Counted from the first letter of the whole stretch, positions 11,407-53,189 are shown. The stretch is 63,370 nt of DNA, filler included, from Kipferlia bialata (GCA_003568945.1; 6 parts of 6 records of this genome joined end to end with filler, not necessarily neighbours in it); one strand, 5' to 3'. Notes: generated by a model from the letters alone, not told the origin. Translations and numbers: made by a program.

Positions 11407-11438
<32 letters not shown>

Positions 11439-11992: not shown

Positions 11993-12025
<33 letters not shown>

Positions 12026-12153: not shown

Positions 12154-12184
<31 letters not shown>

Positions 12185-12467: not shown

Positions 12468-12507
<40 letters not shown>

Positions 12508-12668
12508 ATCATAGTGGCACAGGACACAGTCAACTGCGTCAGGTATATATATATATATATGTATATTGTATATATATATATATATATATATCCATCATAG
12601 TGGCACAGGACACAGTCAACTGTGTCAGGTATGGTATATATATAGAGAGAGAGAGAGTGTGTGTGTGT

Positions 12669-12712
<44 letters not shown>

Positions 12713-28932: not shown

Positions 28933-28934
<2 letters not shown>
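24584..28934 (-). CDS. Uncharacterised two-transmembrane protein with Cys-containing luminal loop and low-complexity Pro/Tyr-rich tail
   Basis: ATG at 28934 (MANKNKGSCLGTVLFYAFWCSLVYGIQMIQ, TM1); loop ...CIVNVVDY...AEEFCNEFQAGQSVVVYT...CDTSYDNGPC; TM2 VLHFICGWTLCLSFPVTITCLIVYP; tail ends DQADSAFHY with TAG at 24584-24586. About 11 exons with consistent phases. Confidence 0.75.
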
Positions 28935-28975
<41 letters not shown>

Positions 28976-29100
28976 GTTCCCTGCCTCTCTCTCTCTCCGC
29001 CTTAACTCACTGAAAGCAAGGGTTACTCAGTACCCTTCTAGCACAGTAGATCTATGGCCTATATATAGACTGCCAATCAGTGTCCAATCAAGAAGAAATT

Positions 29101-29143
29101 CGGTATGGAGGGGACTCGAACCCGAGACTTCGTGACTCTGAAG
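29101..29143 (-). pseudogene. tRNA-like 3'-half fragment (B-box/T-arm)
   Basis: Minus strand reads CTTCAGA GTCAC GAAGTCTCGGG TTCGAGT CCCCT CCATACCG followed by a T-rich run. The T-loop is clear, but no matching 5' half (D-arm, 5' acceptor GGTATGG) is found nearby. Confidence 0.35.
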
Positions 29144-29381
29144 CTGATACATCATCTCACATATAGATCTAGGGTCTCATATGAAGATTTTCATTTCTAG
29201 TTTGCTCCAGCCTTCGACATTCCCTTTACAAGCTTCACGTGTTCAAGCGTACAATCGCATTAGGTAACACACTGACACTTCTTCTCCATATTCATAACAT
29301 CTGATTCATAAGAAATCTATTGCTTCACATAGGGTCCAATCGCGACGATTGATTCAAGGATTGATTCAATGATTGATTCTG

Positions 29382-31579
29382 TCACCGCTTACACACTGCA
29401 TAGTCCTGGTTGTTGTATTCATAGGCCATGTGGACATTCTGGAGTCAGATGCATAAGAGTTCAAACACTCCAACAAGCAACCAGAAACATATACAGATGA
29501 ACACAAGAAATATCTGCAAATCGGTTCGAATTAGTAAATACAAAAATGTGCACGAAGAAATATAGCGGAAAAGTGCATGTATAGTCGTGTACCTTATTGT
29601 TTTTCTCCCCTGCCCAACATGCGAATCTGTCAACATGTTCTCCCACATAACCCCTTACAACAGAGCTGCCATCGAAGAAGTCTCGAAGGTCATCAACAAT
29701 CTGTGTTTAGAGGGGGATAAACATACAATACTTATACATATATATATGTATATATATATATATACTCTGTCAAAGAAGTCTCGAAGGTCATCAATAGTCT
29801 GAGAATAGAGGGGGAGAAACAGAGAACATCGCATATATCAAAGAGAATAGAAGAATTGATAGGAAACATACATGATAGTTGTCTGCCACAAAGGACAGGT
29901 GCAGTATGACTCCATCAAGTGCAAATGGACATAGAATATACCATGGATACCAGTATATATAACTACAATGTCTCGAATACATCAATAACTTACATGATAG
30001 TTGTCTGCCACAAAGGACAGGTGCAGTATGATGGTGTCAAGTGCAAATGGACCATCTCCGTCTACTGTCTGGTTGATCAACCAGCGCATGTCCTAGGGTA
30101 AATATGTATACTATTACATGTGTAACCAGAGAGATACAGCAGAGTACTAGGTTGGTTGATCAGTCTTTGCATGTTTCAAAGAAGACTCAAGATGATTCAA
30201 GAGTACCAGCCTCAAAAGACATGTAAAGATCTTCCCTTCTCACCTCCCCTTCTACAACTACCCCATTGAACATGAGTTCCTTATTAGTATACCTACACCT
30301 AATATATTCATTATACACTATTCAAAGTATAAACATAGGATGTGTATAACTAAGCATATCTACCCTTACCTCCCCTTCTAGTATGACGCCATTGAACATC
30401 AGTTCCTCCACTCCAGCTGTGTCCGATAGGGTCTGATATGAGAGAATATATAGATATAGAGGAACTGCAGTTCAAATAGTAGATAGATGGAACTACTCAC
30501 CAGAAGTCCGAATAGTTCATCCATCGGAATCACTGGTTTGCAGTAGTCACCTGAGGTCAGAGATGTAATATACTCTATAAGAATACGCAATCAGTGTGTG
30601 TCTCTTGCAGTAGTCACCTGAGTTAACGGAGGTAGGTAATACTAACACAGATATTCAAGAACAGAGCCATATGATACGTTATACCCTCTCACCCCCTCGC
30701 CAGTATTATGATGTCTAGGGTACTATGTAATGTACTCGTACCATACATATATGTGGTATTGTTAGACGTACCCACTATGGCCAGTCTTGTGATGTCTAGT
30801 GTGTCAAACAGAGTGTGCAGGAGCAATGGAAGTGTCCTTGTGTTACACTCTATATCATGTATATATACTACTTCTAGAGATATATCGATAAGACTGGTGT
30901 GTCAAACAGAGTGTGCAGGAGCAAGGGGAGGGTCCTAGGGGTGAGGAAAATTCTTCTCGGAGATATGTTGTAAATAGAGGACAGAATACTTGATTGTCTA
31001 TATATATACTGTATCTATATTTCGGAGACACATACTATTCACAAATGTATCCATATAATTATGATACCTAATCTCTTCGTCTGATGTCCTATCTCCCTCC
31101 CCATAGTGGGCAGTGCGGTTACTGATGGGACTGAGGTTGAGCAGGACATTGGTAGCACCGTTATAGTCACCGGCCTGAGGTCAGTGGGAAGGGTACAACA
31201 TATATATTCTCAATAATTATATTATCAAATGAAGTTTGTCAGACGATGCTGGCACCATTGTAGTCAGCTGCCAAAGGTGAGAGGGTAACCCTATTATCAA
31301 CACTTGATACATACTACATCTATATACAGAGGGATGAATATATGAATATATGTATATATATGTATATACATGCATACATATGTATATATCCCATACCCCA
31401 TATATCTGCATAGTACATAGCGTATGTGTGGGAGGAGGACAGATACAGTAATCACAACCACACACACACACATATATATAAGGAGTAATATACGTATATA
31501 TACACATACTACTTACCACTATCTCTGCGTAGTACATGGTGGATGTGTGGGCGGGGGTCAGATGGATAACAAGGTCAGG
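29382..31579 (-). CDS. Hypothetical protein, multi-exon, 5' partial
   Basis: Eight phase-consistent exons: PDLVIHLTPAHTSTMYYAEIV / AGDYNGATNVLLNL... / TLPLLLHTLFDTLDITRLAIVGDYCKP... / ...IILHLSFVADNYH / IVDDLRDFF... / NVHMAYEYNNQDYAVCKR*; stop at 29382-29384. No family recognised with confidence. Confidence 0.7.
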
Positions 31580-31672
31580 CTGGGTTAGTATTGTAGATAA
31601 TACATTGTAATAGACATTTGTAAATGAAAGGGGGGGGGGGGGGGGGGGGGCCCCCGGGGGGAAAGGGGAAAA

Positions 31673-31772
31673 NNNNNNNNNNNNNNNNNNNNNNNNNNNN
31701 NNNNNNNNNNNNNNNNTTAATTAATTAANNNNNNNNNNNNNNNNNNNNNNNNNNNNNNNNNNNNNNNNNNNN
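31673..31772. other. Artificial scaffold spacer
   Basis: N44-TTAATTAATTAA-N44. Confidence 0.98.
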
Positions 31773-32166
31773 AGTCCTCCTCCCCCCCCCCCCCCTTCCC
31801 CCCCCCCCCCCCCCCCCCCACCCCCCTCCCTCCCCGTCTTCATTAACACTCACCTACCTCTCTCTTGTGTTGTATGAATATGCAGCATCGTGTATCATAC
31901 CGTATCGGCGGTGGGTTGTGTGGACTGTTGTTCCATTCTCTCTCTCACTATGTATACTAGTAGCAATCTCTCCCTGGTCTCTCTTCCTCCACCACCCTCT
32001 CTCTATACACTTATCTGCCTAGTCTGCATCTCATCCCCAAAGTCTCTGAGCGTCCACTTCCTCTCTCTCTCTGGTTACTCTCCCTCTATGTCACATATAT
32101 AAAACCCCTTAGGTCTCTGACCGTATGTATTATCTCTCTCTCTCCCTCTTCTCTCTTATCCCCTAG

Positions 32167-32293
32167 GTCTCTGAGCGTCTGCTCCTGCTGTTGCTGAGGA
32201 AGAACTTCAGCAGCAGAGAGTCGTCCAGACTCACAGACAATGAGCTGGAACTCTTAGGTATGTTTCTCTATAAGCTAATGTACCTATGTGTAT

Positions 32294-32326
<33 letters not shown>

Positions 32327-34404
32327 AACTCATAGGTGTACTGATCCTATTCAATACTATAACTGAAATTATTTGATATACTCTCTCTGAAAGAGATAGT
32401 ATGTGCCTGACTCCAGTGTCTGTGCGTGAGAGTCTAGGGGAGACCACCTTCCAGCAGTACGAGGACAAGGCAAGGTATATATATTGCGAATAATATATGT
32501 AAATATATATATATGTATGTGTGTGTGTGTGTGCAATACACCTTCCAGCAGTACGGGGAAGGCAAGGTATACATGTAGAGTATGTATGGGTATATACGTG
32601 GTCTACTCTTAATCTGTATAGATATATTAATTCATATGATACCATCCAGCAGTACGAGGACAAGGCCAGGTATCTTAACTTGGAGTATACTATGTATATA
32701 TATACATTGGGATTACCCGTACACTCTCTCACCCTCCCAGGACCATGCGTGCTGACCTCCGTCCCCTTGACAAGAAGGTACTCTCTCTCTCTCTCTCTCT
32801 CTGCCATTACTACAGAGATACGGGGAATGAGTGTCCCCCCCCCCCCAATCCTTCACTATCTTGCAGTATGTTTCACCTTATTCACTGTCTTTGTACTTAT
32901 GCTGTATGCGTATGTGTTTCTGACTCCAGGTCCGCAAGCGCTATGAGAGACAGGAGGCCGAGGAGTGTAGGTTGGTGTATGTGTGTGTATATATGTAGTC
33001 TTTCACTGATTGTATATATATCTAATTGTACATGGTTTCTGACCCTCAGCGGTGAGCTTGAGCGTGTCCTGCGTATCCTGGAGGAGTCCAAGAGGGGAGA
33101 TGAGAGCAGGGAGAGTGAGAGGGGAAGCGACTCCCCACCTGAGAGAGAGGCACCTGTAGTGGATGAGGAGATGGAGAGAGAGAGAGAGAGAGAGAGACTC
33201 ATGGAGGAGGAGGAGTTCCACTTTGCACCACCCAGGGTATCATCCATCGCTAGGTATGTGTAGAAGTATGTATATGTATAGTGTATACTATATACTATAT
33301 ACTATATACTGTATACTATATTCTATATACCACCCAGGGTGTCATCCATCGCTAGGTGTGTGTATGAGTATGTAGGGACTGAGAGTCTGTTTATAATGTC
33401 TTTTCAATATCTATGTTGCCCTTAGCCTAATCTCATTCACAGGTCTGACGAGCCCGATGCTGCACAGTGTTAATTAACTCAATAGTACTTTCATAAGTTC
33501 ACTTTTATATAACGTCAGTATATAGTATCTCTTATCCTCTCAGGTATGTGTATATATACTACTTGTTTATAGTTTATGTATATCTATATATCTTATCCCC
33601 CAGGTCTGACGAGCCCGATGCTGCAGAGCGTCTGCAGAGAGAGAGAGACGTAGCCATAGAGAGAGAGGTGGCAGCCATCAGGTGGGGGTTGCATGTAATG
33701 ATTGATAACTGGGGTGAAATCATACCATGGGTATAGACAGGGAGAGAGAGAGAGAGATAGGTGGCAGCCATCAGGTGGTATATATATATACATTGTGGTA
33801 ATATTGTTAAGTTATGTTAAGTATCACTATATATGCAATAACTGACCTCAGGGAGAATACCGGAGTCGAGGTCGAAACAGAGATAGAGAAGGAGAGGGAG
33901 AGAGAGGAGGCCTGGGCGATGGAGGCCCAGATTGAGAGGGAGAGAGAGGCAGAGATGGAGAGGAAGAGGGAGAGAGAGAGAGAGGCTGCCGAGCAGAGGG
34001 TGTCAAATGGCGGTGTCACTGAGAACGTCATTGTCTACAACGACAGGCCCCAGGATGGTGAGTCATAGTCATTATTGTCATACTGTCTGATATCCTCCTA
34101 TATATATACTCATTCACTATACTCACCCTAGGCTCCCTCCCCTCTGTCACCCCCTCCACTCCCGTACATTATGAAAAGTACTTTCATACATCTTATCCCT
34201 TCTGATATCAGGCTCCCTCCCCTCCGTCACCCCCTCCCAGCTCAGGTCTGACACACTGGCAGTGTACGTGCCAGAGGGGTATGCTGATGCAAAGGTATTG
34301 GTACTGTAGATATATACTATTGATACAATTAGGTATCTCCTATATATCTGCAGAGTCACTCCCAGGCGCTTGTCACCGTCAGCGTATTCATTATATATAC
34401 ATTA

Positions 34405-34438
<34 letters not shown>

Positions 34439-37400
34439 TGTACTTATACCCAGTCCCTAGTCACATCCAACCCCCCCTTGGCCTGTGAGATGCTGGTATC
34501 CTATAGCCAGGAGTGCACAGACCTCAAGAAGAGGGTGCACTACTTGGAGGCACTGCTAACTGAGGAGGTATAGTGTAGATACATGTATATATATATATAA
34601 GAGTATATATATATACAGCCAGGAGTGCACAGACCTCAAGAGGAGGGTGCATTACTTGGAGGCATTACTAACTGAGGAGGTAATACTTTTTGATCAATAA
34701 CATCTGACTACAGGATATTCAGTCATTCATTAAACTCCCTACACCCCACGTCCCCACCTGTGTGTCAGACACTCATATTTATACATTTGTATTTATAACA
34801 TTATTCATGTATTTAGAGTTGTGTATAACATATCCATGACCCCAGGTCCCCACCCTGTGTGCCAGACACGAGACAGAGACACACCGGATGAGGCAGGTAT
34901 GGAACAATATTGTATATACATATATATATATATATATTGTATATATATATATGTCTACATGCCAGTATATGAGACACAGTATATATGGATATACTCTATA
35001 CTAGATATATTCTCTCTGGATATACATGTACATGTACATATATACATACATGTAGAAACACACAGGATGAGGCAGGTGTGGAACAATTATTATTAGTTAT
35101 ATATATATATATATATACATATTAAGAGAGAGAGAGACAGAGATAGAGACACACAGGATGAGGCAGGTATGAGATATATGTATGTAGTATAGTGTGGATC
35201 GTTGTATAAAAACCTACAGTTATATACTAGTGCCTTGCTAAAATACCTGACCTCTGGACAAGGATGCCTTTCATATCAGTTGATATATATATCAGTATAT
35301 GCATCTGTATATATATATACTAAATATCAGTACATACACTTTCCCCCAGGACTACGATGCCCTGATATATGTTAATGTACATCTATATATCAATATGTGT
35401 AAGTATATATGCACACACACATATATATAAACATATGTATATATGTGTGTCTATAGTGTATATACCTGACCCCCAGGACTACGATGCCCTGATATATGTA
35501 AGTATATATATATATATATATATGTATACATGAATATGTATATATCTGATATATATAGAGGTGTATATACCTGACCCCCAGGACTACGATGCCCTGGAGG
35601 CACAGCTGGACGAGGCTCGCATACAGGTATATCAGCGTATCTCCATTTCTCTGCCATATTCCTTCTACAAATACCTTCTCTAACCACTACTGGTATAATT
35701 ATTTGATACCTTATACATAGAACGCTTCCTCCCACCAGAGGCCAGACATTGATATATATGAACTACTTCGTATGAAGAAAATCTTTTGGATCATCAGACC
35801 AGCTATAAATATATCTCTATGTTCTATTATTCTTCATTTACTGATACTAATAAATGACTATTTCCTTACACCCAGAACGCTTCCTCGCACCAGCGGCTTG
35901 TGGATGAGACCGAAATGCTGAGGAGACAGCTGGAGGGGAGGGTGGCTGAGGTATTGTATTTCGTTAGGCTCTGTTTCATTCTCACCCCAGGACTCGTGTA
36001 AGTATGTTTATCTATTGGTTGTGTTTCTCTAACCCCCAGGGTGTAGGCATCCACTCTGGGGCTGCAGCTGTGATGCTGGAGGCAGAGAGAGCCAGGGCAC
36101 ACTCAGAGGGTATGTATTCGTCTATATATATGTGTCAGTATATACATGTCATTATATACATGTATAGTATACCAGGTATACATAGAAGAACATAGTATGA
36201 TACTCAACCCCAGACACTGCCGAGAGGGCAGACCTGGCATATATATATATATATATATATATATAAGTACATACTATATATACATATAAATGACTATTTA
36301 TATTTGTGTACTACGTTTGTACGTTTGGTATACTATATCCTTACTCATATATCACCCCAGGCTCCGCTGAGAGAGCAGACCTAGCACGGGCTGAGCAGAG
36401 GCTGGAGCAGGTGTGTCTTTTAGAGAGTTGTAGTATTCTACTCTCTCTAACATACTTGAACAAGGTCACATTATTGAGCATTCTACAATATATATATATA
36501 TATATTATAGTTCTGCATGTTATCTAACATCAGCTGTCCCATGAGCTCCAGGCCAATCGGTCTTCCTCTTGTCATATTGTTGAGCATACTCTATATACTA
36601 TAGATATATATGATCATATATATGTATAGATATGTCAATATACATATAACACCTAGCTGTCCCACGAGCTCCAGGCCAGCCGGTCTGTACAGAGGCAGTT
36701 GGCAGAGGCCGAGGAGCACATCACGGTGCTGCAGGGTTAGTGTTTCTTATGAATACATCCTATACACATGGATTTATATGTATATACATATGTATGTTGT
36801 ATCTATACAGAGACAGCTGGCAGAGGCCGAGGAGCACATCAAAGTGCTACAGGGTACTTAAGGTTTTGTACACGGATGGGTATCTCTATTCCATCGTATG
36901 TATACTGAGTAACATGTGTGTACTGAGTAACATGTGTATACAGAGCGTGTGTGCAGAGAGATACTGATGCCAGGTGACCTCTCTGACTCCCAGAGGCGGG
37001 AGAGAGAGATGACATCCGCCCTGAACAGTCTGGCAGAGGTGGGGTGGATATATATGGATGTATACATATTATACTATATATTATACTGGGAGAGGTGGGA
37101 GGCATATATATGTATATCTGAGTACGGTGCAGAAGAGCTCTCTCACCCCTCAGGTCCTTGCAAATAATGATCCTGAATCCTCTGCGTCTCTCTCTCTCTC
37201 TCATCCCCACACTCACCCATTAGGTCCTTGTGACTGATCAGGCTGACCCCTCTGCCTCTCTGCTAGGCACAGCCAAGGCCATGGTGCACAGGCACAGGGA
37301 GACAGAGGTGCGTATATTTATAGTCATATACGGATGGTGGTATGTACGTATATTTTTACATATAACACTTGGTCAACGGTGCACAGAGGGACAGAGGTGG

Positions 37401-37641
37401 GATTGTCTTTTCTGTTTTGCTCTGTATTAGTGTGTTTTCCCTGATGTCCAAAGCAATTACTCTCCCTCCTCCGATTCAGTGTCTCAACGATTGTCGATTC
37501 TCACCCTCTCATTCTCATACATATATGTGTATGTCCTCCTATACGCACATGTATATATACCCTAATATCCAGGCCAAGCTGCACCGTAGCACTGCTGCCC
37601 TGGGGTACCTCTCACAGCAGTGCCAGGACATTAGGTGTGTA

Positions 37642-37686
<45 letters not shown>

Positions 37687-40666
37687 ATGTGCGTATATAG
37701 TACATTGTGTCCCAACAGTGCCAGGACATAAGGTTGGGACTTAGTATGCCATTACATAAATACCATTGTAGTATCATTATGATAAATATTCACATTGTCT
37801 CACCCCAGGGCCGACACCCTTGAGCTGAGGGCTGCCTTTGAGGCAGAGCTCGCAGACACTAGGTATGTATAGATATGTGTTCTGTATTCATCTATGTGAA
37901 TTGTACACTAGTTGAGTATATATGTCTTTGAGTCAGAGCTGGCAGATACGAGTATAATACTAGTATAGTATATATACTGGTATAGTATAGTGTATTGTAT
38001 TGTAAAGTATATCGTATAGTATAGTATATAGGTAGTGTTGATATATATACATATAGCCGCCTTTGAGGCAGAGCTGGCAGACACGAGGTATATTGTACAT
38101 ACTTACTCTTTATATTGTATATACTTACTCTACTATATACGCTAAAGAGTGTGGTGTACATGCTGTATTACTCTATGAACTGTCTAGAATACCGGGATAC
38201 GTCTCTATAAGGACTCACTTAGGCTCTCCCTAGCTGAGGCCACCACCTGTAAATTAATTCAGTGTATATTTTCTTATATATATATCTCCTGAATAGTAGA
38301 ATATATATAGAATACCTAATTCACAGGCTGTCCCTAGCCGAGGCCACCACCCAGATATATATATGCAGTATATATGTATATTTTCTATACAATATATGTA
38401 TATAATGCCTAATTCCAAGGCTCTCCCTTGCCGAGGCCACCACCCAGATATCTGTGGCATGGGCAGCACAGAGGAGCAGGAGCAGCAAGGTGCCATAACA
38501 TGCACTCCCTATATAGTATATACCATGGATGAACTAACCCCCATGTGTCGAGTCCTCTCTACTGTCTATTATAAAGATACGTTCTAACCCCAGGTGTCCT
38601 CTGCCCTGTCCAAGGCAGTGCACCACACATCGGCACTGCACTCAGGGTGTGTACTGTATATATAGATGACTAAGTGTATAGTATGACACATAATACATTC
38701 CAATTAGTATCATTATCAGTATCATAACATACCTATTAGATGCTGTTCTTATCTCACCCCAGCGATGCCTCTGCCCGTGCCTCTCTAGAGCACCTGGAGA
38801 CACCCACTAGGTATGAATTAGTATGTATATTTGTATTATTGTGTATTTTATTAATGTATCAAGACAGATATTAGTATAGACACGCCAGGTATATGCATGC
38901 ATTTGTATATTGATATATTTGTCAGTGTTTCTATGTACATATATGCTATATTAAACATGTCCTATTCCGTTTCCCCTTACTCTAAGTCCTATATTCATCT
39001 ACTTATCCTCAGGGGCTCCGTGTCTGTCGTTGGTCTGTGCCGGGGCAAAATCGAGGAGTCAGGTATAGTGTATATATAGTATATAGTAATATATAGATAA
39101 TAATGTGTATAATATATATATGTATATATATTGCACATCATGATTTGTAGGGGCAACACTGAGGAGTCAGGTATGCATGTAAATCCGTCAAGACTGTACA
39201 TCCAGCCCCATAATATTACTCTATACTCGTATCAGAATGTCAATATGTATTGATAGGTATATATCTCACTCCCAGGTGTCATGATTGACTCTGAGCGTGA
39301 CGTTGTCTTTAGAAGCAGAGACAAGGAGACAAGGAGGTATGGTATAATGAGATAGAAAATGAGATAGATACTATCATGTGGTGTGAGAGAGTACACATCA
39401 CTCTATTTCATCTCACATCCAGATACACCATGGACTGTGCCCTGCCCACCCCAACTAGCCCAGACCAGACAGCCAGACTTAGTGAGTGGTACTAGCAATA
39501 GGAGTCCTCCACCCCCCCTCTCTATATCTCTTCATATTAACATGTATACCTGTAATACCTCACACTCAGTGGAGGAACTGGCAGACTCCGTGCCCTCTGT
39601 GCTGGAGGGCAACGACGTGTGCATATTCTCATACGGACCCAGGTACTCAAGTAGTACCGAGACACTAGTCTCTTTGAGTATCTCCAGTTACTCAATAATA
39701 TTTGTCGTAATTGACCTTCCATACAATCATATTCAAATATTCATATTCAGCAGGATTACTCTTCTATACTTCTAGTTACTCTTATAATGGTATCCTCACC
39801 CTCAGGGCTTCTGGCAAGGCCGCCACCGTGCTTGGCTCCACCTCTGGTGCCTTTGAGGGACTCTTCGCAGAGGTCGGGAGGGAGGTATGGATCGCTATTC
39901 ATGCACTGGTATTGACTCGTGTTTTTAAATCCTTTTCTTACCTCATTATACTCTCACCCCCTAGATCCTGTCTGCCTGTTCCGACATGGACCCGGACACC
40001 AGACCGGCCATGCACGTGTCGGTCTACAGGTGTGTATGTCACATTTGCTTCCGTATACGTATATGATGTTGTTCATTTTCCTCTCTATATATACACACTC
40101 ATACACTCACCCCAGGGTCCATGGTGATAAGGCAGAGGATGTCCCACACCCATACTGTCTATATATATATATATACAACAGTTATATCTGCGACAGATAT
40201 ACTCTATATACCTATGTACTGACCCCAGGGTCCATGGCGATAAGGCAGAGGATGCCTTAAAGCCTAGTGGGGGACCCTTCTCAGTCAAGATGGACGCACA
40301 GACCCAGGTATCATGCTCTATATGTACGGCTATTATTCTCTCTTTCTCTCGTGTATTACGAACTCTACGGTTTCTAATCCAATAGCGCATGTACCCTTTA
40401 CATATAGATCCACCTACTATCTCGTTAATCTCTAACCCACAGCGCATGTACCTATCTGGTGCCACCAAGGTAGCTGTGACCTCGGCAGATGACCTCTCTA
40501 GACTGCACACATACCTCATGAGTGCACTGGGACCTACGGACTTGGCTACTACAAGGTATATATATATCTATATACTTGAATAACTATGGATGTGTGTGTA
40601 GCCCTGGTGCCTATATCTATATACATACCTCATGAGTGCACTGGGACCAACGGACCTTGCAACAAC

Positions 40667-40707
<41 letters not shown>

Positions 40708-42114
40708 TTGTATAACTTTGTGTGGTGCCTATATCTATATACATACCTGATGAGTGCACTGGGACCTACGGACCTTGCAACAACTAGGTGTGTGTTTATA
40801 TATGTATATATAACTATATGTGTGTGTGTAGATGTTACCCTGGTGCCTATATCTATATACATACCTGATGAGTGCACTGGGACCAACATACCTGGCCACA
40901 ACTAGGTGTGTACAGTATGTATTATTATATTATATTATTATTATAATTATAATATTATATATATATATATATATATATTTCATTATACATTATGATTACA
41001 TTATACATACGTACATACTATACCTATATATGTTTTCTTTCATATATCGCACCGTCAACTCCCTTACCTATCAGCCTTGTGATTGTGCTTGACATTGTGA
41101 TCCCATGGTATATGCAAGATATTCTAACATATCTATATATGTATATATCTTCTCATATGAGTGTGTAGATGGACTCTTACCCCTCAGCGTTGTGATCGTG
41201 CTTGACATTGTGATCCCCTGCACCACTGGGGCAGAGGGAGAGAGACAGGGAGAGAGAGAGAGAGAGCCCCAGCAGCACAGGGTGGGCAGGGTGTCCATGG
41301 CCATCCTACCAGACTCAGACGCGGTTGTTACAGGTATGTTTATGTATATATATATATTTATGTATATATATATATATACTATCTCATTCAATATAGTCAT
41401 ATGTATGGTAATATACTGATAAGTGTCCATGGCCATCCTGCCAGACTCAGACGCTGTAGTGACAGGTACAGGGGCATTGATAATAGTTAGTTAATGAGAC
41501 ATATATAGGTGGTTATATGACTCTCCTCCCGGACTCAGACGCTGTTGTTACAGGTACAGGGGCATTTATAATAGTTAATGAGTAATATATAGGTGGTTAT
41601 ATGGCTCTCCTGCCAGACTCAGACGCTGTTGTTACAGGTATGTAAATTTGTATATGTTGATATACCTATATATATGCATAAGTGTGTATATACACTCACT
41701 AACCCTCCAGGCAAGAGGGGCATTACGGCTGTGACCGATGTGGTATCTGCCATAGTCAGTGGGTCAGCATTCATACCACACAGGTTTGTGTATCTATAAT
41801 GTAAGGAAATATTCTTATCTTCAATACATACAGTACTGGGATGAATTGTAGTGTGAGTGCATCTGCTATAGTCAGTGGGTCAGCATTCATACCTCACAGG
41901 TATGGTAGGGTATGTACATTATATGTGATTATAGTGTTAGTAACCTGGGGAGGACATACCCAACGTCAATGTATTTGGTAGTACCAGGGTAATATCTTTG
42001 TGTACTTTGTATCCCAATCCTCAGGAACTCCAAGCTGACCTTCCTGCTCAAGGACGTCCTGACCCCCACCTCCTCCATCCACTTCATGGTGCACGTGCCA
42101 GTGGATGTGTCTAG
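32167..42114 (+). CDS. Kinesin-like protein with long coiled coil and degenerate C-terminal motor domain (kinesin-14-like layout), partial at both ends
   Basis: Coiled-coil exons from 32167 to ~38810. The motor domain starts at 39013: GSVSVVGLCRG, SVLEGNDVCIFSYGPRASGKAATV (P-loop), MYLSGATKVAVTSADDL, VVSAIVSGSAFIPHRNSKLTFLLKDVL (kinesin L12/alpha5 signature). Confidence 0.88.
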
Positions 42115-42247
42115 GTATATACACACAATAGTATCTAGTGTATATACGTATTGTATATACACTTCATGGTGCACGTGCCGGTGGATGTGGCTAGGTACAA
42201 TGACACATACACTCTTGTATTGGTGTTTCATAGTTGATATACAAGCA

Positions 42248-42347
42248 NNNNNNNNNNNNNNNNNNNNNNNNNNNNNNNNNNNNNNNNNNNNTTAATTAAT
42301 TAANNNNNNNNNNNNNNNNNNNNNNNNNNNNNNNNNNNNNNNNNNNN
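42248..42347. other. Artificial scaffold spacer
   Basis: N44-TTAATTAATTAA-N44. Confidence 0.98.
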
Positions 42348-42509
42348 CCCAGAATATGAAATACTATTTCTACTATCATTTCAAAACCTTTGAGAGGAGA
42401 GACAGGTATTACGAATATCTCTCCAGGACACATATATATCCAGAATATAACATCCTATACATCATTTCAGTACAAACATATATTATGTTACGTATTTCCT
42501 CACTGTTAG

Positions 42510-42588
42510 GGCCGTCGAGATGGAGGGACCCCGAGGTGGGCACTTTTATGTAACAGAGTCTGGCAAGAAGCAATACGTCAAGAAGTGA
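42510..42588 (+). CDS. Terminal exon of a 5'-truncated gene encoding a PBCV-specific basic adaptor domain-like motif
   Basis: Acceptor CTCACTGTTAG, then AVEMEGPRGGHFYVTESGKKQYVKK with TGA at 42586-42588; matches the GPRGGxYxxTxSGxKxYV pattern. Confidence 0.65.
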
Positions 42589-42933
42589 ACATCAGACTGA
42601 CCAGCTGAGTGCCATTGGTCTGATACAGCAGCATATACCATATAACAGACATCTCATTGTCTTTGTTGTACTATAGAGTTGGCCAGACGTAATCTGCAAC
42701 ATAACTAATGCAGCATATGCGTAATGCTAGCCTAGTGTAGATCCACGAGGCAGAATCATGGGTGTGCTATTGAATAGAGGAAGTTGCTATGTGACGTGTG
42801 TCTAGAGACTATGTCAGTGTGTAACCATCTATTATTGCTGACGGGATAACTATATATCAAGTGACGTAATTGCCAACACCTAAATACAACCTGATATGTT
42901 TGATCTCTCTGGCGCAGACACCTTGCTTGGACT

Positions 42934-43905
42934 TCAGTAATCGATGTCCAATATGTCAACCAGGTATATCCTTTTCTCCTGATTAGTGAATAGGTCCTCA
43001 GCCCCAACAATGGCTGTGTTCTCCCCTACACGTACGCACATGCGCATGTACTTGGAGGTTCCCAATAGACCCACCAGACTTCTAATACTCCCTGATACAG
43101 AGGACATCAGAAGAATGCCTCGTTGTTGCCTGATGATGACCCACGGCCCTAAGGGAGTAATGCCGAAGGGTGCCCAGTCTTGACCCATTGACGAGTCTTG
43201 ACCCATTGACGAGTCTTGATCCGTTGACGTCATACGCACACTGGTGGCATTGAATGTGTATGAGTACACGCTCTTGTCGATCCCAATCCAGTACCAAGTT
43301 TCATCACCTGAGCACAATAGCCTCAGAGCACCACCACTATCTTTGTACTTCTCTAGCATTGGCACTGAACTCACTTCTCCGGACTCTGGATCAAAGAGAA
43401 CAGGTGACGTAATTCCTCTCCCGGCCCCAGTTGACACCCACACATACTCTGAAATGACACCAACTGTGAATCTGTACCCACATTGTGGGCCACAAAACCC
43501 TATGGTTTCCTTGAGATCGGTCTCCACACTCCATTTCCTCCACTGGTGTGTATCTAGTGAGAAGACCAACCACGACTGGAGCGAAAACACCAAGGATCCA
43601 TCCTCTCCCTTGTGTGGCTCGAACTGTAGTCCATACACATCACCTCCAATTCTTCCTGCCAACTGAAAGTAGCACTGGAATACTCGGTTGTAGGGTAGAT
43701 GGAAGGTTGGCGCCGGTATCTCCTCATGTGATACACTTCCATCATCATGTGTGGTGAGTATGCCAGCTGTAGTTCTCTCTTCATTGTACACATGGCCAAT
43801 CCAGAGTGTCTGGTTGTTGCCAATGTATGTAGATGTCTCCATGTTGGCGATCAGATCAGAGGGTAGTTCTGTCACATTGACGTCGGGTACTAAGGCACTT
43901 TCCAT
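42934..43905 (-). CDS. Intronless 323-aa hypothetical protein, probably a divergent kelch/beta-propeller-like fold
   Basis: Clean uninterrupted ORF with no microsatellites. Beta-strand-like motifs GRIGGDVY, WLVFSLDTHQWRKW, VLFDPESGEV, PLGPWVII; internal 18-nt tandem duplication (QDSSMG x2). Confidence 0.75.
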   Translation of the reverse strand: MESALVPDVNVTELPSDLIANMETSTYIGNNQTLWIGHVYNEERTTAGILTTHDDGSVSHEEIPAPTFHLPYNRVFQCYFQLAGRIGGDVYGLQFEPHKGEDGSLVFSLQSWLVFSLDTHQWRKWSVETDLKETIGFCGPQCGYRFTVGVISEYVWVSTGAGRGITSPVLFDPESGEVSSVPMLEKYKDSGGALRLLCSGDETWYWIGIDKSVYSYTFNATSVRMTSTDQDSSMGQDSSMGQDWAPFGITPLGPWVIIRQQRGILLMSSVSGSIRSLVGLLGTSKYMRMCVRVGENTAIVGAEDLFTNQEKRIYLVDILDIDY

Positions 43906-44200
43906 TGGATTGCTTACAGTTGGGATTAGAGAAGGTAATAGGAGAGGTTACTGGCCAAAGATACTGTAACGGTGTCGAACTGTATACTTCTACATACATG
44001 GTCAAGGCTCACACTGTAGAGACTCTACAGTGGAGTGGAACCATTGATGTGGGACTGTACTGGTGACATTCTTTTGCTACATTTGGAAACAGAAACTAGA
44101 TATGTACGTTACATCTCTTGGTACATCAAGTACCAACTGAAACGAAGTACGAACCGTGGATTCATAGCAAATACCATGAACATCTATTCATGGTGGTCTT

Positions 44201-47200
44201 TCACTTCTTGGAAAGTGACTTCCTAAAGTGCTTCATCACATTCTCCTCATGCCTCACGTACACCAGCCATCCCACTACATAGGACACAACACATGGAGCC
44301 AGATCAGAGTTTCTGAACATTAATATCACTCTGAATGAAAACACAGAGTTGGGGATTGTTAAAGTAAATATAATAAGTGTATATAAATGTGGGTAGAAAG
44401 TACATATATTCGGGTGTGTGTGGAGTGAAGAACCCTACCTGAACGTCTTTGCCTTGAAGCGCCACCCCTCCTGCACACTCACATTGGTCAGGTGCACTAC
44501 CTGTAGCACCTGGGGTTAATCAGGAAGACGGGCTATATCGCGTAGAAACGATTAGTCGCGTAGTTGCACTCACCTGCTTGTCTAGGTCGGCCAGCCCCTC
44601 CCCGTATGCCTGGACCTGCCTCTCCTTGTCGGGTGCTCCTCACGCAGCCTGGTGATTAGGCGGTGCTACTTATACATATATATGGATACACTATCAGTCT
44701 GATGGTTCGGGGGTGGGGGGCTTATAACATTTCTTCAAGAAAGGAGGGACTGAGAGAGAGAGAGAAAAAGATAGACCCCTGTACCTGACCATGGCCAGGG
44801 CCAGAGATGTGCGAAGGGCAGGGACCAGCTGGCGGATCTCCTCTAAGGGTAAGACATGAGGTTATATAGATAGGACATACACTTACGTGACACAATGTAC
44901 ACATTACAATGTCAGTAATACTACACGATCCCATACCATCGTCGAGTCCCTCCTCTGGGTGCTTGTTGACAGCCAGGGCGAAGATACTCTCCTGCACAGC
45001 GGCAGGCAGCCACTGTCTGAGGTGAGAACACGCTCTTACACGATACACATTTAAGCTACACGATAGACACTGAGGTTACACGATTCCCCATCTACCTGGC
45101 TGCGATGGACAGGTTGAATGGGCTGAGGACGGTGGCAGCCAGTGTAAACACGTTGTAGATAGCCTGGGCCAGGACAGTCTCCACAGCTGGGGTGAGATGG
45201 TACTATTCTTACACGATACAAGTACACTACGCGATACATATGTATAGAGTACCTGTGTCCACAGGTGGCTCCCAGTCCTCTATCAGAGCGATGTTGGCGA
45301 ACTGCGGGTCGTCGTCATCAGCAGCTAGAGGTGAGAGATATGAATAGAGGAAGAATAACATAGAAGGTGTGAGAGAGAAGGAGTTTTCTTACCCTCCGGT
45401 GACTTGTGTGTGCCAAAGAGGTTGGCGAAGGTGTGCCTCAGGATCTTGCCAACCTGAGGGTGAGAAGGAAAGAAGGACGATAGCACATCTTGAATATGAT
45501 CAAATGAAATATCATCTTGAGATGGTATATGTACCTTTCTGTTCTTCTTCTGTCTGTGTCTGGAGCTAGATGACTTGAACAGGGCATACATCCACCTGGG
45601 GTAAGGATAACAAATGAATATCATCTCTCTACTATAGAAAGAGAACGATGAATATGTCTCTAAAGGTGCATATACAATCATACCATGTAGGCAGCTCTGG
45701 CCCACAGTCCTGGTCACTGAACTCTGAGTCGGCATGGACAGACGTGTACTTGGACCTAGGGAGTGAGTGACAAGTAACAAATACTGAATTAGTCATAAAA
45801 TTTGAAAGAATATTGAGAATGAAGTGCACTGAAACGTTACCTTGGAGCCGAGTAGAAGCCGAACATGTATCCGACGTTCTTCATGGCCCAGTATGAGCAC
45901 ACTCTGCCAAAGACAGACAGGGCCTCGGATCGGGATCTGAAGGTTAGAATGGGGAATAGTAATGGGCAATTTCATTATTCAATAAAAGAGAGTGAGTAGA
46001 GTGTGCAACATTGTGTATCACAAATAGAGGCGGTCTGACCTGTCTCCCTCCTTCTTGTATACACTGAGCACAGGTCTAACAACCCCGGCCACGTCGAACC
46101 TAGGGGTTAGAATACACACTCTGTGCAAGATACTACGCGCTATCACTTACGCGATACATATATTCGTACCCCTCATCGATGTCTGGTTGGCGGCTGATGC
46201 AGTCAATATGGGCCTGCTGCAGCCTAAGGGGATGAGAGAGAAGGTAAGGTTCATAATGGGGTCCCAACACAGATAAGTCAAATGCTGTCGCTACCAGTAC
46301 TGTTACACACCTTGGTAGTAGTCTGTCCTCATGGATATAACATGTAATGTGTACTAATACTACCCCTCGCTCTTATGCATCTCTCTCTCTATATATATGT
46401 ATATCATACACTATAGCTACTCATTTACCCACCTTGTGTAGTAGTCTGTCCTCATGGATGTCATTGCATTGGCTGCACCACCGATGGCCATAAGGAGGGT
46501 GCGCTCGGCCTAGAGGGTAAGAAATAGTAAATCATATACTAATAATTGTATATAACAACAGCAGTGGTGCGCTCAGCCTAGGTCTCAGAGGATATGGGTA
46601 TAAATATATCGAAGAATATTTATAGGTGGCCATCAGAAGGGTGCGTTCGCATAATGGTAAGACATTTATATACTATACGTAAATACACGTTAGCACACAT
46701 AGTGTAGAGAAACAGAAGAGTACGCTCACCCAAGAACTGAGAAGTTACGGGTATATAAATATGAGTATAATATATCTATGTATGTGGTGGTGTGCACTAC
46801 AAAATTACAGATACCTACCTGTGTCATTGCCGTGCCCACTGACTCCTCCAGCTCGATCAGGGCAGTAGAGTCAGTCACCTCCTGAAGGGTAATACATCAA
46901 TGAATGAGAATGCCATGAATTAGCAACAATGTACATACATATTCATACTATACCTCCTGCCACGTCCTTCCAAAGTCTGTCGGGTATAGAACCTTCATTC
47001 TCACCTCCTATATGTAACGCATATAGGTTTATAACAGTCTAACCTCCTGCCACGTCCTTCCAAAGTCTGTGGGGTATGGTGACCTGGCCGCATCTACGAC
47101 AAGAGGGGCCAGTACCCCACCCTGCCACTCCTGCACCTGCTTCACAACCCTGGTAAGGTGAGTACACGTCGCGTAAAATTCTAGGTATGTTATTTTGCTG

Positions 47201-50200
47201 TGAGTTGTACCTGAGTCTGAGCAGCAATTGACAGAATGAGCTGTACCCTGTGCCCAGGGCGTCTGTGACGGATATCGTCATCTGGCGCTGGGTGGAGAGT
47301 TGGTTGCCACGGAGGCCTGGAGATATTAGCACTAAACTACACTGCACATACTACATGTAATATATGTGTAAGTAGAATGACTGCTACGTTTCAAACGCTG
47401 AGTGGAGAGCTGGTTGCCACGGAGACCTGGACGTGTAAGCTACACACATATACGTGAGACGTTAAAACCAACACAATGTATACTCGACGCGCCATATACT
47501 AATATGTGTGTACCTAGAGTGGGTGCCACTGCGTTGGTGGCCAGTCTAAGTAGGATCTGGACAAAGACACTCTCCTGAGTGTGGCCAAGGACAGCCCTGG
47601 GGTTAGTCATATATACATATTTACAGACATGTACTGATATACATACATATATACATACATATATACAGATATATATACACTTATCATTACTCTCCTGGGT
47701 GTGGCCAAGGACGGCCCTGGGGTTAGACCTATAACACATATATATATAAATCAAGACATCAATACATTAATACATCCTTATATACAGATATACACTCCTG
47801 TAATGACCCTCCTGGGTATGTCCATGGACGACCATGGGGTTATGAGGCTGTTGAATACGCCACTAGAAGTCACAACTAGATATATAGCAACACTTACAAA
47901 TACATATAATGTAAGTACCTTGCAGCTGCCTGCACACTCAGTAGTCTGATGGCCTGGAGCCCAAAGAAGAGAAGACCGCCCCAGACCTGGGGTTAGAATC
48001 TAGAACTATACATGTGATGGAGAATTCAGTACAGATGACACTGACCTTCTCTGTTGCGAATGGGATGGGGTCACTCTGGAAGGAGAACAGTCTGTCGAGC
48101 GTGTTGGCTGTTGTGAACAGACCCAGCACTGACTCGGCTAGGGCAGCGCACTGCTGAAGGTTAGAGAGAGTACTCTCTAGTCAATTCACACACCTTTTCC
48201 GTTGTCTTTCCCCTCATCATGATCATATGGAAGACATATACTGGAGAATTCTAATATAGAACAATGTAATACATGAGAGTATGGCAACGTCTAAAAGAGA
48301 TACACACATACCTCCACTCCTCTCCCGTTGTCTTCTCTCTCAATCTCCTCGCCGTCATCATTGAAGTGGGGGGTGGTGTCTGGTGGTTACGAGAGGGGAA
48401 GTGTAACACAAATAGAGGGTGGCCATTCAAATACTATGTTAAGACATGTGTTCATGTACCTCTCTCCAAAGGGTGGACAATGTGTAATAATAATATATGT
48501 ACTCTCCATATATATACCTCTCTCGAGCAGGTGTGCTATCTTGGCCGAATACGATCACTCTCCACAAATACTCTCTCAATACAATCTTAATATAGGCATG
48601 TGCTTCCATACCTCTCTCCAGGAGGTGTGCTATCTTGGCCGACAGGTGCTCTGGGGGCTTAATGGTCTTTACCAGCTTGATCAGTCTGTACATCAACGCC
48701 TCGCAGAAGGTGCGCTGCAGTTAGAACTTGAATATTGCTGACATTCCAATAACGGTGAATGTATATGCTTCCCAATGCATGCAAGGAATACATAGTATAC
48801 CTCTGCCTCGTGCCCTATGGCCTCTAGCACAGGCTCAAAGGCCTGGACATGCGTGACAAGACGGTCTGCTAGTTCCTTTGGTGTGAGCCATTTATACTGT
48901 GACATGCAATGGTGATTACCTTGAACAGTGTAATGTGCTGCAGCATTGTGAGTCCCTCTGGTATCTTCACCATGCACTCCTTGTAGGCCAGCTCCTCAAA
49001 GACCTGGGCATGTCAGTACTCTACGCGATTACGTAAATATTACACGATACTAACTACTGTATACTTACGCGATACACTCACCAGCCTGACCACCTCTGTG
49101 CCGTCAACTAGGGAGTCTCTGGAGAATGGACAGTCTGCTACACACTGAGGGTGAGAGACTATTGATTTAGCTGATAGTATGCGTTAGCTACAGGAATGAA
49201 AGGAAACTCTGCTTCAACATGAGTGTGATTTATGTATCAGGGATATATAGTGAAAGTACAATGGACTAAAGGGGAATTACAGTTACCTGCAGGGATGGTA
49301 TGCACAGTGTGTCTATGGTTGTGATATAGTATATATGCATTATGGGAACTGTAGTAAGTGACTGTATATACTATACACTATATACCTGCAGGGATGGTAT
49401 GCAGAGTGTGTCTATGCTGGTGGACAGGGCCTCTGCGGCAGAGACAGACTCAGGCATCTCGGGGGTGAAGAGGCAGTCGTAGTTCTAGGGGTGAGAGAGA
49501 GGAGATAATAGAAATAATGAATATCCAACAAACAGTATTCAGTGCGAGTCAACATACATACACAACAAAAGCCTTCACCTGCAGGTACAGCATCATCTGT
49601 TCTGACACCCTCTTGACCACCTCAATATACATGATATAAAGATATATATAGATATATATCACTCTATATTAACATTGCTCACCTGAAGATATAGTATCAT
49701 CTGCGCTGACACCCTCTTGACCACCTCGCCAGTGCCCCTGGGGGTGAGGCACGTGGGAATTTATGTATATAGTATACCAATATACTATTAATATATATAT
49801 ATATATTAGCGTATACTTATGTCCATCCCTACCTCTCCCTCATCTTCACCTCCTTAGTGGCCTCGTACTGCTATACTTAACACTGTAAGCTATAAATATA
49901 GAGTATTATGTATGCATAATATGAACATACCTCTCCCTCCTATTCTCGTCCTCTGTGTCATCGTCATATGTATATATCAAAATACAAGTACATGTCTAAT
50001 AATAATACATGTCTCTAATTACCAATTACTCATTACACACCTCTCCCTCCTCTTCTCGTCCTCTGTGTCATCGTCTGGGTTGGTGTCCACATCAGCATCA
50101 ATGAGAGGGGCCATGCCGCCTAGGGTAAGAGACAATATCGCATCGAATAACATATCCCGTCTACGTATATAATAGGTATAATACATCGGTATCAATGAGG

Positions 50201-51545
50201 GGGGCCACGCCGCCTGGCGTTAATTCCCATATTATCTCATAAAATGTATTATATCTCTAATATAGTATAATATATACTATATATGTATACACTATATGTA
50301 TCCACTATACACACCCAGCAGAGCACTCATGGCCGAGAGGGACGGTCTGGTGGGGGTCAGACACGAGGACTGGGGGTGAGACATATCGCATGCACTACCA
50401 GATTGATGTATCCGGAAGCAACAAACAAGTCCAACCTGAAATACTACCAGAATGCATATCTGTCATCTCGTTGATGTAACAGGTATCAACATATTTCAAG
50501 ACATACCTGAATCTGCAGCATATATCCGGGTATTCCACACTGAGTGACCTTCTGGCCCGTCCCAACAACGACAATACCTCTACACAATGTATATATATAC
50601 ATATACATATCTATACTAATCCTGAAAGAGGGTATACTGCGTATACTAACCTGAATCTGCAGCATTTCCACCAGTATATCTGGGTATTCCACACTAAGTG
50701 ATCCCCTGGCCCATGAGAGCAGGACAAAGACTAGGCCCACACCCAGTCGGAAGATGTCCTCGGCCTCACTCTCCTGGGGTAAGCTACACGATAGATAGAG
50801 AAGTAGCTACACGAAGTATACATGTCCTCGACCTTGAAGTTACAAGAGACTAATATATAAGTATATATACTAGTATACAACCGATTATTACTGATATATG
50901 GTGCTACACAATCTCTTACCTTGAGACCCTCCATCAGATCCTCTGCGAGTTCAATATACACTTATGCGGAATACTCAACCTAGTATAATCACATTGTAGG
51001 TATTAATATACCTTTAGCCCCGCCATGAGGTCCTCTGCTAATGTAATTACTATATAACATAATTGCTATATCCTTATATATACCTGTAGGTCCGACATTG
51101 CCATGTATAAATATACAATCCCATGTACCTTTAGCCCCGCCATGAGGTCCTCTGCGATGCTTGACCGACAGGGTGCAGCGAAGGAGGGAAGAGATACCAT
51201 GGACATAAACTCGGTGTCACTGGGGGTCAGATATTTGAATATATGTGTAGATACATATATATATATATGTATAGAGAGAGAGAGAGAGAGAGAGAGAGGA
51301 TGGGAGGGACACCATGGACATGAATTCAGTGTCTCCGGGGGGTCAGGTATATGTATATACATGTAGGTATATATATACAGAGAGAGAGATCAGTGTCAGT
51401 GGGGGTTAGGTATATATGGTTAACAAATACATTTGTATGTAGTGAGAGAGAGATAGACCCCGGACACATACAGATATACTCAGTATCTATACACTCACCC
51501 CTTTGCCTTGTATGACTGTGCTCATGCCACCATACATAGGTATGT

Positions 51546-51577
<32 letters not shown>

Positions 51578-52625: not shown

Positions 52626-52724
52626 CTGGGGTTAGGTTACTTATTACTACATAGTTAAAACACAATTGGTATACTATACACGCACATTACTAGCTCCTGG
52701 TCACTGTCCCAGGCTGCGGGTCAA

Positions 52725-52758
<34 letters not shown>

Positions 52759-52812
52759 GAGAGAGAGAGAGAGAGAGAGGGAGAGAGTGCTAAGAGAGCT
52801 CCTGGTCACTGT

Positions 52813-52912
52813 NNNNNNNNNNNNNNNNNNNNNNNNNNNNNNNNNNNNNNNNNNNNTTAATTAATTAANNNNNNNNNNNNNNNNNNNNNNNNNNNNNNNN
52901 NNNNNNNNNNNN
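52813..52912. other. Artificial scaffold spacer
   Basis: N44-TTAATTAATTAA-N44. Confidence 0.98.
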
Positions 52913-53189
52913 ATACCTGGGGTAAATAGGGGTGTAGAGAGAGAGAGAGAGAGTGATGGTGCCATACATAGGGTAAAGAAGGGTGTACAGAGGGAGAGAG
53001 AGAGAGAGAGTGATGGCGCCATACCTGGGGTAAAGAAGGGTGTACAGAGGGTGAGAGAGAGAGATGTAGGAGAAGATGTGAACTCATAAATACTCACTTG
53101 GATTCGTGTACAGTGTATACCCCATTCACTGTCTCCACTGTCACTGTGCAGTGATATATATAATATAATCTCTCTATACACTGTACTCA

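What the first reader, a model, noticed from the sequence alone, without database searches (positions are those of the whole stretch)
40443..41637. Untranslatable intronic exon-end copies diverge almost only at synonymous sites
Seen: the kinesin exon ending at 40555 (ACA TAC CTC ATG AGT GCA CTG GGA CCT ACG GAC TTG GCT ACT ACA AG|GT) has three partial copies in the next intron (40623, 40741, 40859). By hand count they carry 4, 5 and 7 synonymous codon changes and only one replacement in total; the copies are not independent. The changes include TTG/CTT/CTG Leu swaps. The exon ending at 41333 has an echo at 41423 with 4 of 4 changes synonymous. The same bias appears in other scaffolds: 9096 vs 9183 (TTT>TTC, CTG>TTG, CCA>CCT), 34508 vs 34617 (CAC>CAT, CTG>TTA, K>R), 20758 vs 20872 (CGG>AGG), 21898 vs 21751 (CCC>CCT, GCT>GCA), 1263 vs 1178 (TTT ACT>TTC ACC), and 60292 vs 60154. 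Donor echoes have no acceptor and sit behind stop-ridden (TA)n DNA, so neutral decay should hit all codon positions. Inference: the echoes are or were under protein-level selection. Possible routes are (i) cycling into the functional position by unequal crossover or gene conversion, since deleting between exon end and echo regenerates an intact gene, (ii) capture from diverged functional alleles, making introns an archive of allelic exon ends, or (iii) programmed DNA deletion using the echoes as pointer-like repeats. I know of no described system with this signature.
Basis: partly seen in the sequence, partly recalled or inferred. Interest (0 to 1): 0.92.

Follow-up and report, generated by a model that had tools for sequence, protein, structure and literature searches.

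The report
Introns archive other alleles' exon ends
In this free-living protist more than half of the introns examined carry dead partial copies of the neighbouring exon edge, and these copies differ from the working exon at silent positions far more than decay alone explains, likely because they were copied from other working versions of the gene, which would make a single genome a record of hidden recombination and very high diversity.

Summary
Database names identify the genes as Kipferlia bialata. Across 179 curated exons I found 173 intronic copies ('echoes') of exon ends or starts; 94 of 163 introns carry one. They are not 'almost only' silent (267 silent versus 208 replacement or stop codons). 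Per site, however, non-degenerate positions differ by 5.5% and four-fold positions by 21.8% (ratio 0.22, CI 0.18-0.31). The right null, a free copy beside a selected exon, gives about 0.5 and is rejected. Silent divergence stays near 0.2 however decayed the echo is, and array copies are mosaic. One DNA contig spans exon and echoes at full depth; one spliced RNA contig skips the echoes. Clonal cycling simulations fail; copying from diverged alleles fits. Best reading (0.62): silent junction duplicates derived from other functional alleles in a very diverse, recombining population or a hybrid past. No second strain was found, so this is untested directly. The scan noted similar echoes before in animal genomes, where one note explained the silent bias by selection on the exon alone; that explanation fails here.

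The parts
32167..42114 (+). Kinesin-like gene, 33 exons in my model
   Evidence: All 33 exon peptides are found exactly in the public protein P0001; 11 GT-AG joints confirmed by a spliced contig
40443..40555 (+). Working exon whose last 47 bases are echoed three times
   Evidence: RNA contig matches it with 0 other letters
40623..40669 (+). Donor echo 1, followed by GT; 4 silent codon changes
   Evidence: its first 40 bases lie on the same DNA contig as the exon
40741..40787 (+). Donor echo 2, followed by GT; 5 silent codon changes
   Evidence: contiguity not checked with reads
40859..40905 (+). Donor echo 3, followed by GT; 7 silent changes, 1 replacement
   Evidence: contiguity not checked with reads
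41075..41107 (+). Acceptor echo (after AG) of the start of exon 41188; 2 silent changes, 1 replacement
   Evidence: the RNA contig's loose end reads the exon version, not this one (table 7)
41188..41333 (+). Working exon with one acceptor echo and three donor echoes
41423..41465 (+). Donor echo, 4 of 4 changes silent
41517..41553 (+). Donor echo, 3 silent and 2 replacement codons
41601..41637 (+). Donor echo, 3 silent and 1 replacement codon
37863..38419 (+). 557-base intron holding two donor echoes then two acceptor echoes; spliced from the first donor to the last acceptor
   Evidence: RNA joint; echoes at 37923, 38056, 38223, 38327; all on one DNA contig
51297..51333 (-). Acceptor-side echo of exon 51219 with 7 silent changes and no replacement in 37 bases; its AG is lost
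59315..59367 (+). Acceptor echo with ortholog-like divergence (silent changes plus mostly conservative replacements)
394..61716 (.). Span of all 173 echoes (98 donor-side, 75 acceptor-side), on both strands and in the scaffolds of the window

Best explanation
The echoes are unspliced, decaying partial duplicates of exon-intron junctions, and they likely derive from other working alleles of the same gene. Shown: each echo copies about 30 coding bases plus the adjacent splice signal, sits a median 106 bases from the real site, is skipped in the mRNA seen, and decays with time. Inferred step 1: a break in a microsatellite-rich intron would be repaired by copying about 100 bases from the homologous chromosome and then end-joined instead of annealed, leaving exon A, part of intron A, the end of exon B, intron B. 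Later allelic recombination beside the echo would give the same result. Inferred step 2: only duplicates that hold one splice site survive, because splicing likely pairs sites across the short exon (last acceptor, first donor); whole-exon duplicates would be purged. Inferred step 3: allele B had been under selection until it was copied, so it differs from the exon mainly at silent sites (about 0.15-0.2 per site), and only its later neutral decay (about 0.055) hits replacement sites. This implies sex, parasex or hybridisation among highly diverged lineages.
For: Ratio of non-degenerate to four-fold divergence 0.22 (unique events 0.235, family bootstrap CI 0.18-0.31, 0 of 5000 resamples >=0.5); 0.20 after trimming distal ends, 0.195 without extension, 0.219 with one echo per family, 0.043 in the 11 echoes with RNA-backed frame. 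Four-fold divergence is flat (0.20, 0.21, 0.28, 0.22) for echoes with 0, 1, 2 and >=3 non-degenerate changes. Non-degenerate divergence doubles from the nearest to the farthest echo (24 vs 45 of 661) while four-fold barely moves (37 vs 43 of 185). Changes private to the nearest echo are also silent-biased (15 of 661 vs 17 of 185, P=8e-5). Echo-echo ratio 0.32. 6 of 8 informative site pairs fail the four-gamete test. Non-degenerate changes are AT-biased (96:47), four-fold changes are not (71:57). Replacements are milder than random (BLOSUM -0.30 vs -0.59 or -0.70, P 0.007 or 0.0004). Forward simulation: clonal 0.48-0.72, recombining 0.23-0.25, allele capture 0.19. The species has Spo11, Hop2, Msh4, Dmc1, Mus81 and PolQ entries and none for Ku70 (PMC8516963 supplement rows).
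Against: No second strain was found, so no echo variant has been matched to a living allele. The diversity value 0.17 was chosen by me to fit. The implied silent divergence is at or above the eukaryote record (0.13 raw, 0.20 corrected, PMC4576712). The sequenced culture shows no second haplotype over 3 kb. The intron flank of most echoes is only weakly like the real flank (z>2 in 28-34%; 23 of 251 spacer pairs align), even beside identical echoes, which needs very fast intron turnover or repeated refreshing. Four-fold dispersion (1.09) lies at the low edge of the simple allele model. One of 11 gene pieces gives 0.89 and a twelfth gave no ratio. The four-gamete result rests on two families. Frames outside two genes rest on open reading frames only. 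My simulations omit the detection threshold.
Confidence: 0.62

Rival explanations
1. Clonal snapshots with a fast exon: each echo is copied from its own exon, and the exon's silent sites then change about 3.5 times faster than the echo (local mutation bias, or selection to diverge from the echo).
For: Sites where the exon differs from both echoes are almost all silent (5 of 661 vs 17 of 185). Needs no record diversity. With narrow age spread the model is not rejected (shape >=3).
Against: With the age spread that matches the data (dispersion 1.75) it predicts four-fold divergence 0.09-0.18 in undecayed echoes against 0.193 seen (P 0.012; slope P 0.003). It predicts no silent bias in changes private to the nearest echo; in 30 families where the far echo is at least as decayed these are 4 of 517 vs 14 of 134 (families chosen on that same class, so the unselected 15 of 661 vs 17 of 185 is the fair figure). 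It does not give four-gamete conflicts.
Confidence: 0.17
2. The echoes are used now: a share of chromatids or transcripts removes the DNA or RNA between exon end and echo, so the echo is translated and selected directly.
For: Any removal between matching positions keeps the frame. Many echo splice sites score as well as the real one (41 of 98 donors, 32 of 75 acceptors). Replacements are mild.
Against: The DNA contig keeps all echoes at depth 409 with no deletion joint, and the only RNA contig laid uses the exon version in 5 echo-bearing introns. Echoes show AT-biased decay, 5 stop codons, 7 gapped copies, and 25 of 173 have lost GT or AG, in line with their 5.5% decay per base. No acceptor echo lies upstream of a donor echo, so no pseudo-exon forms. 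Heritable collapse or conversion alone does not lower the ratio.
Confidence: 0.08
3. Ordinary neutral decay: free copies beside a selected exon.
For: Explains the replacement changes, their AT bias and their rise with distance. An earlier scan note reported this fit in a sea urchin gene (e1-9861148, unchecked).
Against: Predicts a ratio near 0.5 (simulated 0.41-0.66) and four-fold divergence 0.03-0.07 in undecayed echoes; observed 0.22 and 0.20.
Confidence: 0.05
4. Assembly artefact: diverged haplotypes joined in tandem across microsatellites.
For: Fragmented draft with (TA)n introns; two perfect duplicates beside gaps are probably artefacts and were dropped. The DNA run may be the one the window was built from.
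Against: A separately assembled 3026-base contig spans 37701-40662 with 1 other letter and no gap, at depth 409, like other contigs at 400-436; it holds 7 whole echoes and most of an eighth. Arrays with four or five versions would need that many haplotypes. Echoes carry stops and lost splice sites, which working haplotypes would not.
Confidence: 0.04

Closest known systems
Human F7 intron 7 37-bp minisatellite whose first unit spans the exon-intron border (PMC1557585; abstract and outline read)
   Same: Tandem copies of an exon end with its donor; downstream pseudo-donors stay silent and the first donor is used.
   Different: One locus, near-identical short units, many copies, donor only. Here 94 of 163 introns, mostly 1-4 copies of a roughly 106-base unit, acceptor side too, with code-shaped divergence.
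Intron gain by tandem genomic duplication (PMC3265369; abstract read)
   Same: A local duplication that carries splice signals remodels gene structure.
   Different: There the duplicate creates a new intron. Here it lengthens an existing intron by about 96 bases per echo and adds no splice event.
Tandem exon duplication giving mutually exclusive exons (recalled, no call)
   Same: Intronic copies of coding sequence with silent-biased divergence.
   Different: Those copies have both splice sites and are translated. Echoes have one site only and are skipped in the RNA seen.
Recombination in hyperdiverse Schizophyllum commune (PMC4576712 passages; PMC4209137 abstract)
   Same: Silent diversity 0.13-0.20; crossovers favour conserved exons, the setting my model needs.
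   Different: Measured there from many genomes; neither the passages nor the abstract I saw mention junction echoes. Here diversity is only inferred from one genome.

Membership tests
Junction-spanning minisatellite (F7 type) | First unit spans an exon-intron border and repeats the splice site | tested here: met
   159 of 173 echoes reach within 2 bases of the splice site; 148 of 173 keep GT or AG
Junction-spanning minisatellite (F7 type) | Pseudo-sites are silent | tested here: met
   RNA contig uses outer sites in 5 echo-bearing introns; minor forms not visible in contigs
Junction-spanning minisatellite (F7 type) | Homogeneous head-to-tail units along their whole length | tested here: not met
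   23 of 251 spacer pairs align; flank z>2 in 28-34%
Junction-spanning minisatellite (F7 type) | Copy number varies between individuals | not testable with these tools
   one sample only
Duplicated alternative exon | Copy has its own acceptor and donor | tested here: not met
   Echoes abut one site; no acceptor echo precedes a donor echo in 163 introns
Duplicated alternative exon | Copy appears in mRNA | tested here: not met
   One RNA contig laid, exon version only; contigs drop rare forms
Intron gain by tandem duplication | Duplicate creates a new intron between the two copies | tested here: not met
   Echoes lie inside existing introns that are removed whole
Programmed DNA deletion with pointer repeats | A deleted form with one repeat copy exists as DNA | tested here: inconclusive
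   No exon-to-echo joint in the DNA contigs of 37500-40770; contigs only, one culture
Allele-derived copies (proposed here) | Silent divergence independent of the copy's own decay | tested here: met
Allele-derived copies (proposed here) | Echo variants occur in working exons of other isolates | not testable with these tools
   no relative closer than about 43% protein identity found

The most novel reading that the evidence does not exclude
Introns of this protist are built largely by repair events between diverged homologous chromosomes, each leaving a dated fragment of another allele, so one apparently homozygous genome archives many alleles per gene and proves cryptic sex and record-level diversity in a free-living metamonad. 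A still bolder form, that echoes are swapped into the working gene by programmed deletion, is not excluded but has about 0.08.
Probability: 0.45. Interest if true: 0.85.

Novelty: new variant of a known kind. Interest (0 to 1): 0.7.

Why it matters
If the echoes are allele fossils, sex and population diversity of an uncultured-in-numbers, deep-branching protist can be read from one assembly, with about 125,000 introns as data (intron count from PMC5874029). It would also name a dominant route of intron growth (about 96 bases per event) in a lineage that lacks classical end joining and Rad51A. Independently of origin, the genes are a natural test of splice-site choice: strong decoy sites 80-150 bases from real ones are skipped on both sides, which points to exon-based recognition in a protist with 99-base introns and a reduced spliceosome. 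The echoes also mislead gene finders: my first model absorbed them as false mini-exons.

Tried and rejected
No whole genome was held, so all counts come from this 63-kb window. No RNA holder was listed as such; run X2 proved spliced when laid. Reads could be laid only on 37500-40770, so the second and third kinesin echoes and the 41423 group are not checked for contiguity. Two metagenome scans with P0001 and P0002 found no relative; the profile-free search found nothing closer than 41-43%. Pfam on 20 single exons hit only 2, both below cut-off (nitrilase, protein kinase). Three-base periodicity of recombinase pairing as the cause: rejected, replacement transversions are equal at all three positions (0.0186, 0.0181, 0.0181) while silent ones at position 3 are 0.074. 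CpG effect: silent excess remains outside CpG (0.094 vs 0.033 transitions, 0.067 vs 0.018 transversions). Frame-keeping spacing: none (63/57/53 by remainder). Link between exon length and echo spacing: none (rho 0.05). Gradient of divergence with distance from the splice site: none clear. Stop-codon depletion: 6 seen vs 8.6-11.2 expected, inconclusive. Duplicates in 3580 intergenic bases: 3 weak hits by a different window method, a hint only. Literature searches for a prior description: 0 papers; 0 papers; the genome paper's main text has no word starting 'duplicat', 'heterozyg' or 'ploid'. Subscription papers are not covered, and I did not look at that paper's supplements.

Full report
Setting. 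The window is a join of scaffolds separated by N runs and a stop linker at five places. No whole genome was held. Two exon queries each hit one protein at 100% identity, both named Kipferlia bialata by their source, a free-living fornicate with 124,912 introns (PMC5874029, passages). I built gene models with a self-trained finder and hand curation: 179 exons in 13 gene pieces, reading frames open. The finder was told to avoid later copies of donors and earlier copies of acceptors, so 'which copy is real' is an assumption outside the genes checked. Checks: all 33 kinesin exon peptides are found exactly in public protein P0001, and 13 of 14 in P0002. Eleven GT-AG joints of a spliced contig give an open kinesin frame. 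Introns without echoes have a median of 99 bases, exons 73.

The observation. Each exon was aligned to its two flanks with position-blind scoring. Score >=14 gave 178 hits in 358 comparisons against 3 in 1074 controls. After dropping 2 gap-flanking duplicates and 3 copies behind stop codons, 173 echoes remain in 128 families; 159 reach within 2 bases of the adjacent splice site and 148 keep GT or AG. 94 of 163 N-free introns carry at least one, and each adds about 96 bases (r=0.84). Median echo length is 30 bases, median spacing 106 (5-95%: 78-147). The headline is too strong: 267 silent, 203 replacement, 5 stop codons. Per site the bias is large: 197 of 3594 non-degenerate against 209 of 959 four-fold sites; corrected ratio 0.22, or 0.235 (CI 0.18-0.31) counting each event once; shifted frames reverse it. 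It holds for donors (0.18) and acceptors (0.28) and in 10 of 11 gene pieces; one piece gives 0.89 and a twelfth gave no ratio. It follows the code, not a period of three, and is not a CpG effect.

Is it real DNA, and is it spliced out? On 37500-40770, one contig of DNA run X1 spans 37701-40662 with 1 other letter and no gap at depth 409, close to other contigs (400-436). It holds 7 whole echoes and 40 of the 47 bases of the first kinesin echo. No exon-to-echo deletion joint and no second haplotype appear. The run may be the source of the window, and contigs drop rare forms. The one X2 contig laid joins first donor to last acceptor in all 11 listed joints, three of them in echo-bearing introns; its two loose ends read the exon versions across two more such introns; the eight pieces listed have 0 other letters. 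Echoes beyond 40662 were not covered.

The right null. A neutral copy beside a selected exon collects changes at all sites while the exon collects silent ones, so the expected ratio is about 0.5, not 1. Simulation gives 0.41-0.66. The data lie well below. An earlier scan note reported that this null fitted echoes in a sea urchin gene (e1-9861148, unchecked); here it does not.

Two clocks. Non-degenerate changes behave like decay: AT-biased (96:47), overdispersed (1.73), doubled in the far echo of an array (45 vs 24 of 661), and matched by loss of GT or AG in 25 of 173. Four-fold changes do not: no AT bias (71:57; the contrast between the classes is P=0.06), dispersion 1.15, and 0.20, 0.21, 0.28, 0.22 for echoes with 0, 1, 2, >=3 non-degenerate changes. 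So echoes seem to start life about 0.15-0.2 away from the exon at silent sites. Changes private to the near echo, where exon and far echo agree, are still silent-biased (15 of 661 vs 17 of 185). Six of 8 informative site pairs show all four combinations, 5 of them in the 47-base kinesin array. Replacements are milder than random.

Models. In a forward simulation with lethal replacements in the exon, clonal birth gives 0.50, clonal two-way conversion 0.48 and clonal collapse-and-recopy 0.72. Recombination between exon and echo at 2Nr of 10-50 gives 0.24-0.23, and birth from a random allele 0.19, with diversity set by me to 0.17. A clonal model with 3.5-fold faster exon silent sites is disfavoured when its age spread matches the data (P 0.012 and 0.003) but not when ages are narrow, and the simulations omit the detection threshold. 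I therefore rank allele origin first (0.62), fast exon second (0.17), present use (0.08), plain decay (0.05), artefact (0.04).

How it would work (inferred). Fornicates lack Ku and Rad51A and keep Dmc1 (PMC8516963, section 8); the supplement lists PolQ, Spo11, Hop2, Msh4, Mus81, Msh2, Msh3 and Rad10 for this species. Dmc1 tolerates mismatches (PMC8682777, abstract), and in a hyperdiverse fungus crossovers favour exons (PMC4209137, abstract). A break in an intron, repaired by copying from the homolog into the next exon and then end-joined, would leave a junction echo from the other allele. Echo junctions are somewhat richer in dinucleotide repeats than intron background (35% vs 23%), a weak hint. 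With 73-base exons and 99-base introns a 100-base duplicate nearly always crosses a border; those with a single site are harmless if splicing takes the sites that flank the shortest exon. First-donor choice is known from the human F7 repeat (PMC1557585, abstract); last-acceptor choice over decoys that often score as well (32 of 75) points to exon-based recognition.

What does not fit neatly. The implied silent divergence equals or exceeds the record of 0.13 raw, 0.20 corrected (PMC4576712, passages), so donors may be diverged populations or a hybrid partner. The culture looks homozygous. Intron flanks of echoes are mostly unalignable with the real flank even beside identical echoes, which needs very fast microsatellite turnover or old echoes refreshed by conversion. 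No relative was found to test allele identity.

Novelty. Junction-spanning repeats are known, and the scan has noted them in several animal genomes. Their presence in over half of introns, on both sides, with silent divergence beyond the exon-only null, did not turn up in six literature searches of the open library. I class it as a new variant of a known kind, interest 0.70.

Noticed in passing
window 2644-2646 and 2547-2549: The nitrilase-like gene needs an acceptor ending in AT rather than AG to keep its frame; the upstream echo has the same AT, so it is unlikely to be a read error. Possible non-canonical intron end, not checked in RNA.
   Followed up: partly
window 6944-7035: An exon of the lipid-binding (LBP/BPI-like) gene is frame-shifted by a short inverted-repeat insertion. 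The public protein P0002 skips it, while paralog P0003 has a matching segment, so the exon is real and either recently broken or mis-assembled.
   Followed up: partly
window 61059 and 61292: The modelled donor is GC while the farthest of its two echoes has GT; the units are nearly identical over 116 bases. Not checked in RNA.
   Followed up: no
window 4059-4073, 23800-23815, 23860-23875: Copies of the last codons and stop codon lie downstream of two genes, so coding ends are echoed as well as splice junctions.
   Followed up: no
window 44574-44648 (minus strand): An exon reads best with a one-base frameshift, probably an assembly error in a C run; left out of the counts.
   Followed up: no
window 25455-25562 and 6056-6246: Perfect duplicates on either side of assembly gaps, probably scaffolding overlaps; dropped from the counts.
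   Followed up: yes
window 42934-43905 (minus strand): Intronless 323-codon reading frame in an otherwise intron-rich genome, with an 18-base tandem repeat and no echoes.
   Followed up: no
window 21205-21557 and 52913-53066: Echo arrays whose working exon lies beyond the scaffold end; not counted.
   Followed up: no
window 38510: The DNA contig reads C at full depth where the window has T, in an intron; likely an assembly difference.
   Followed up: no
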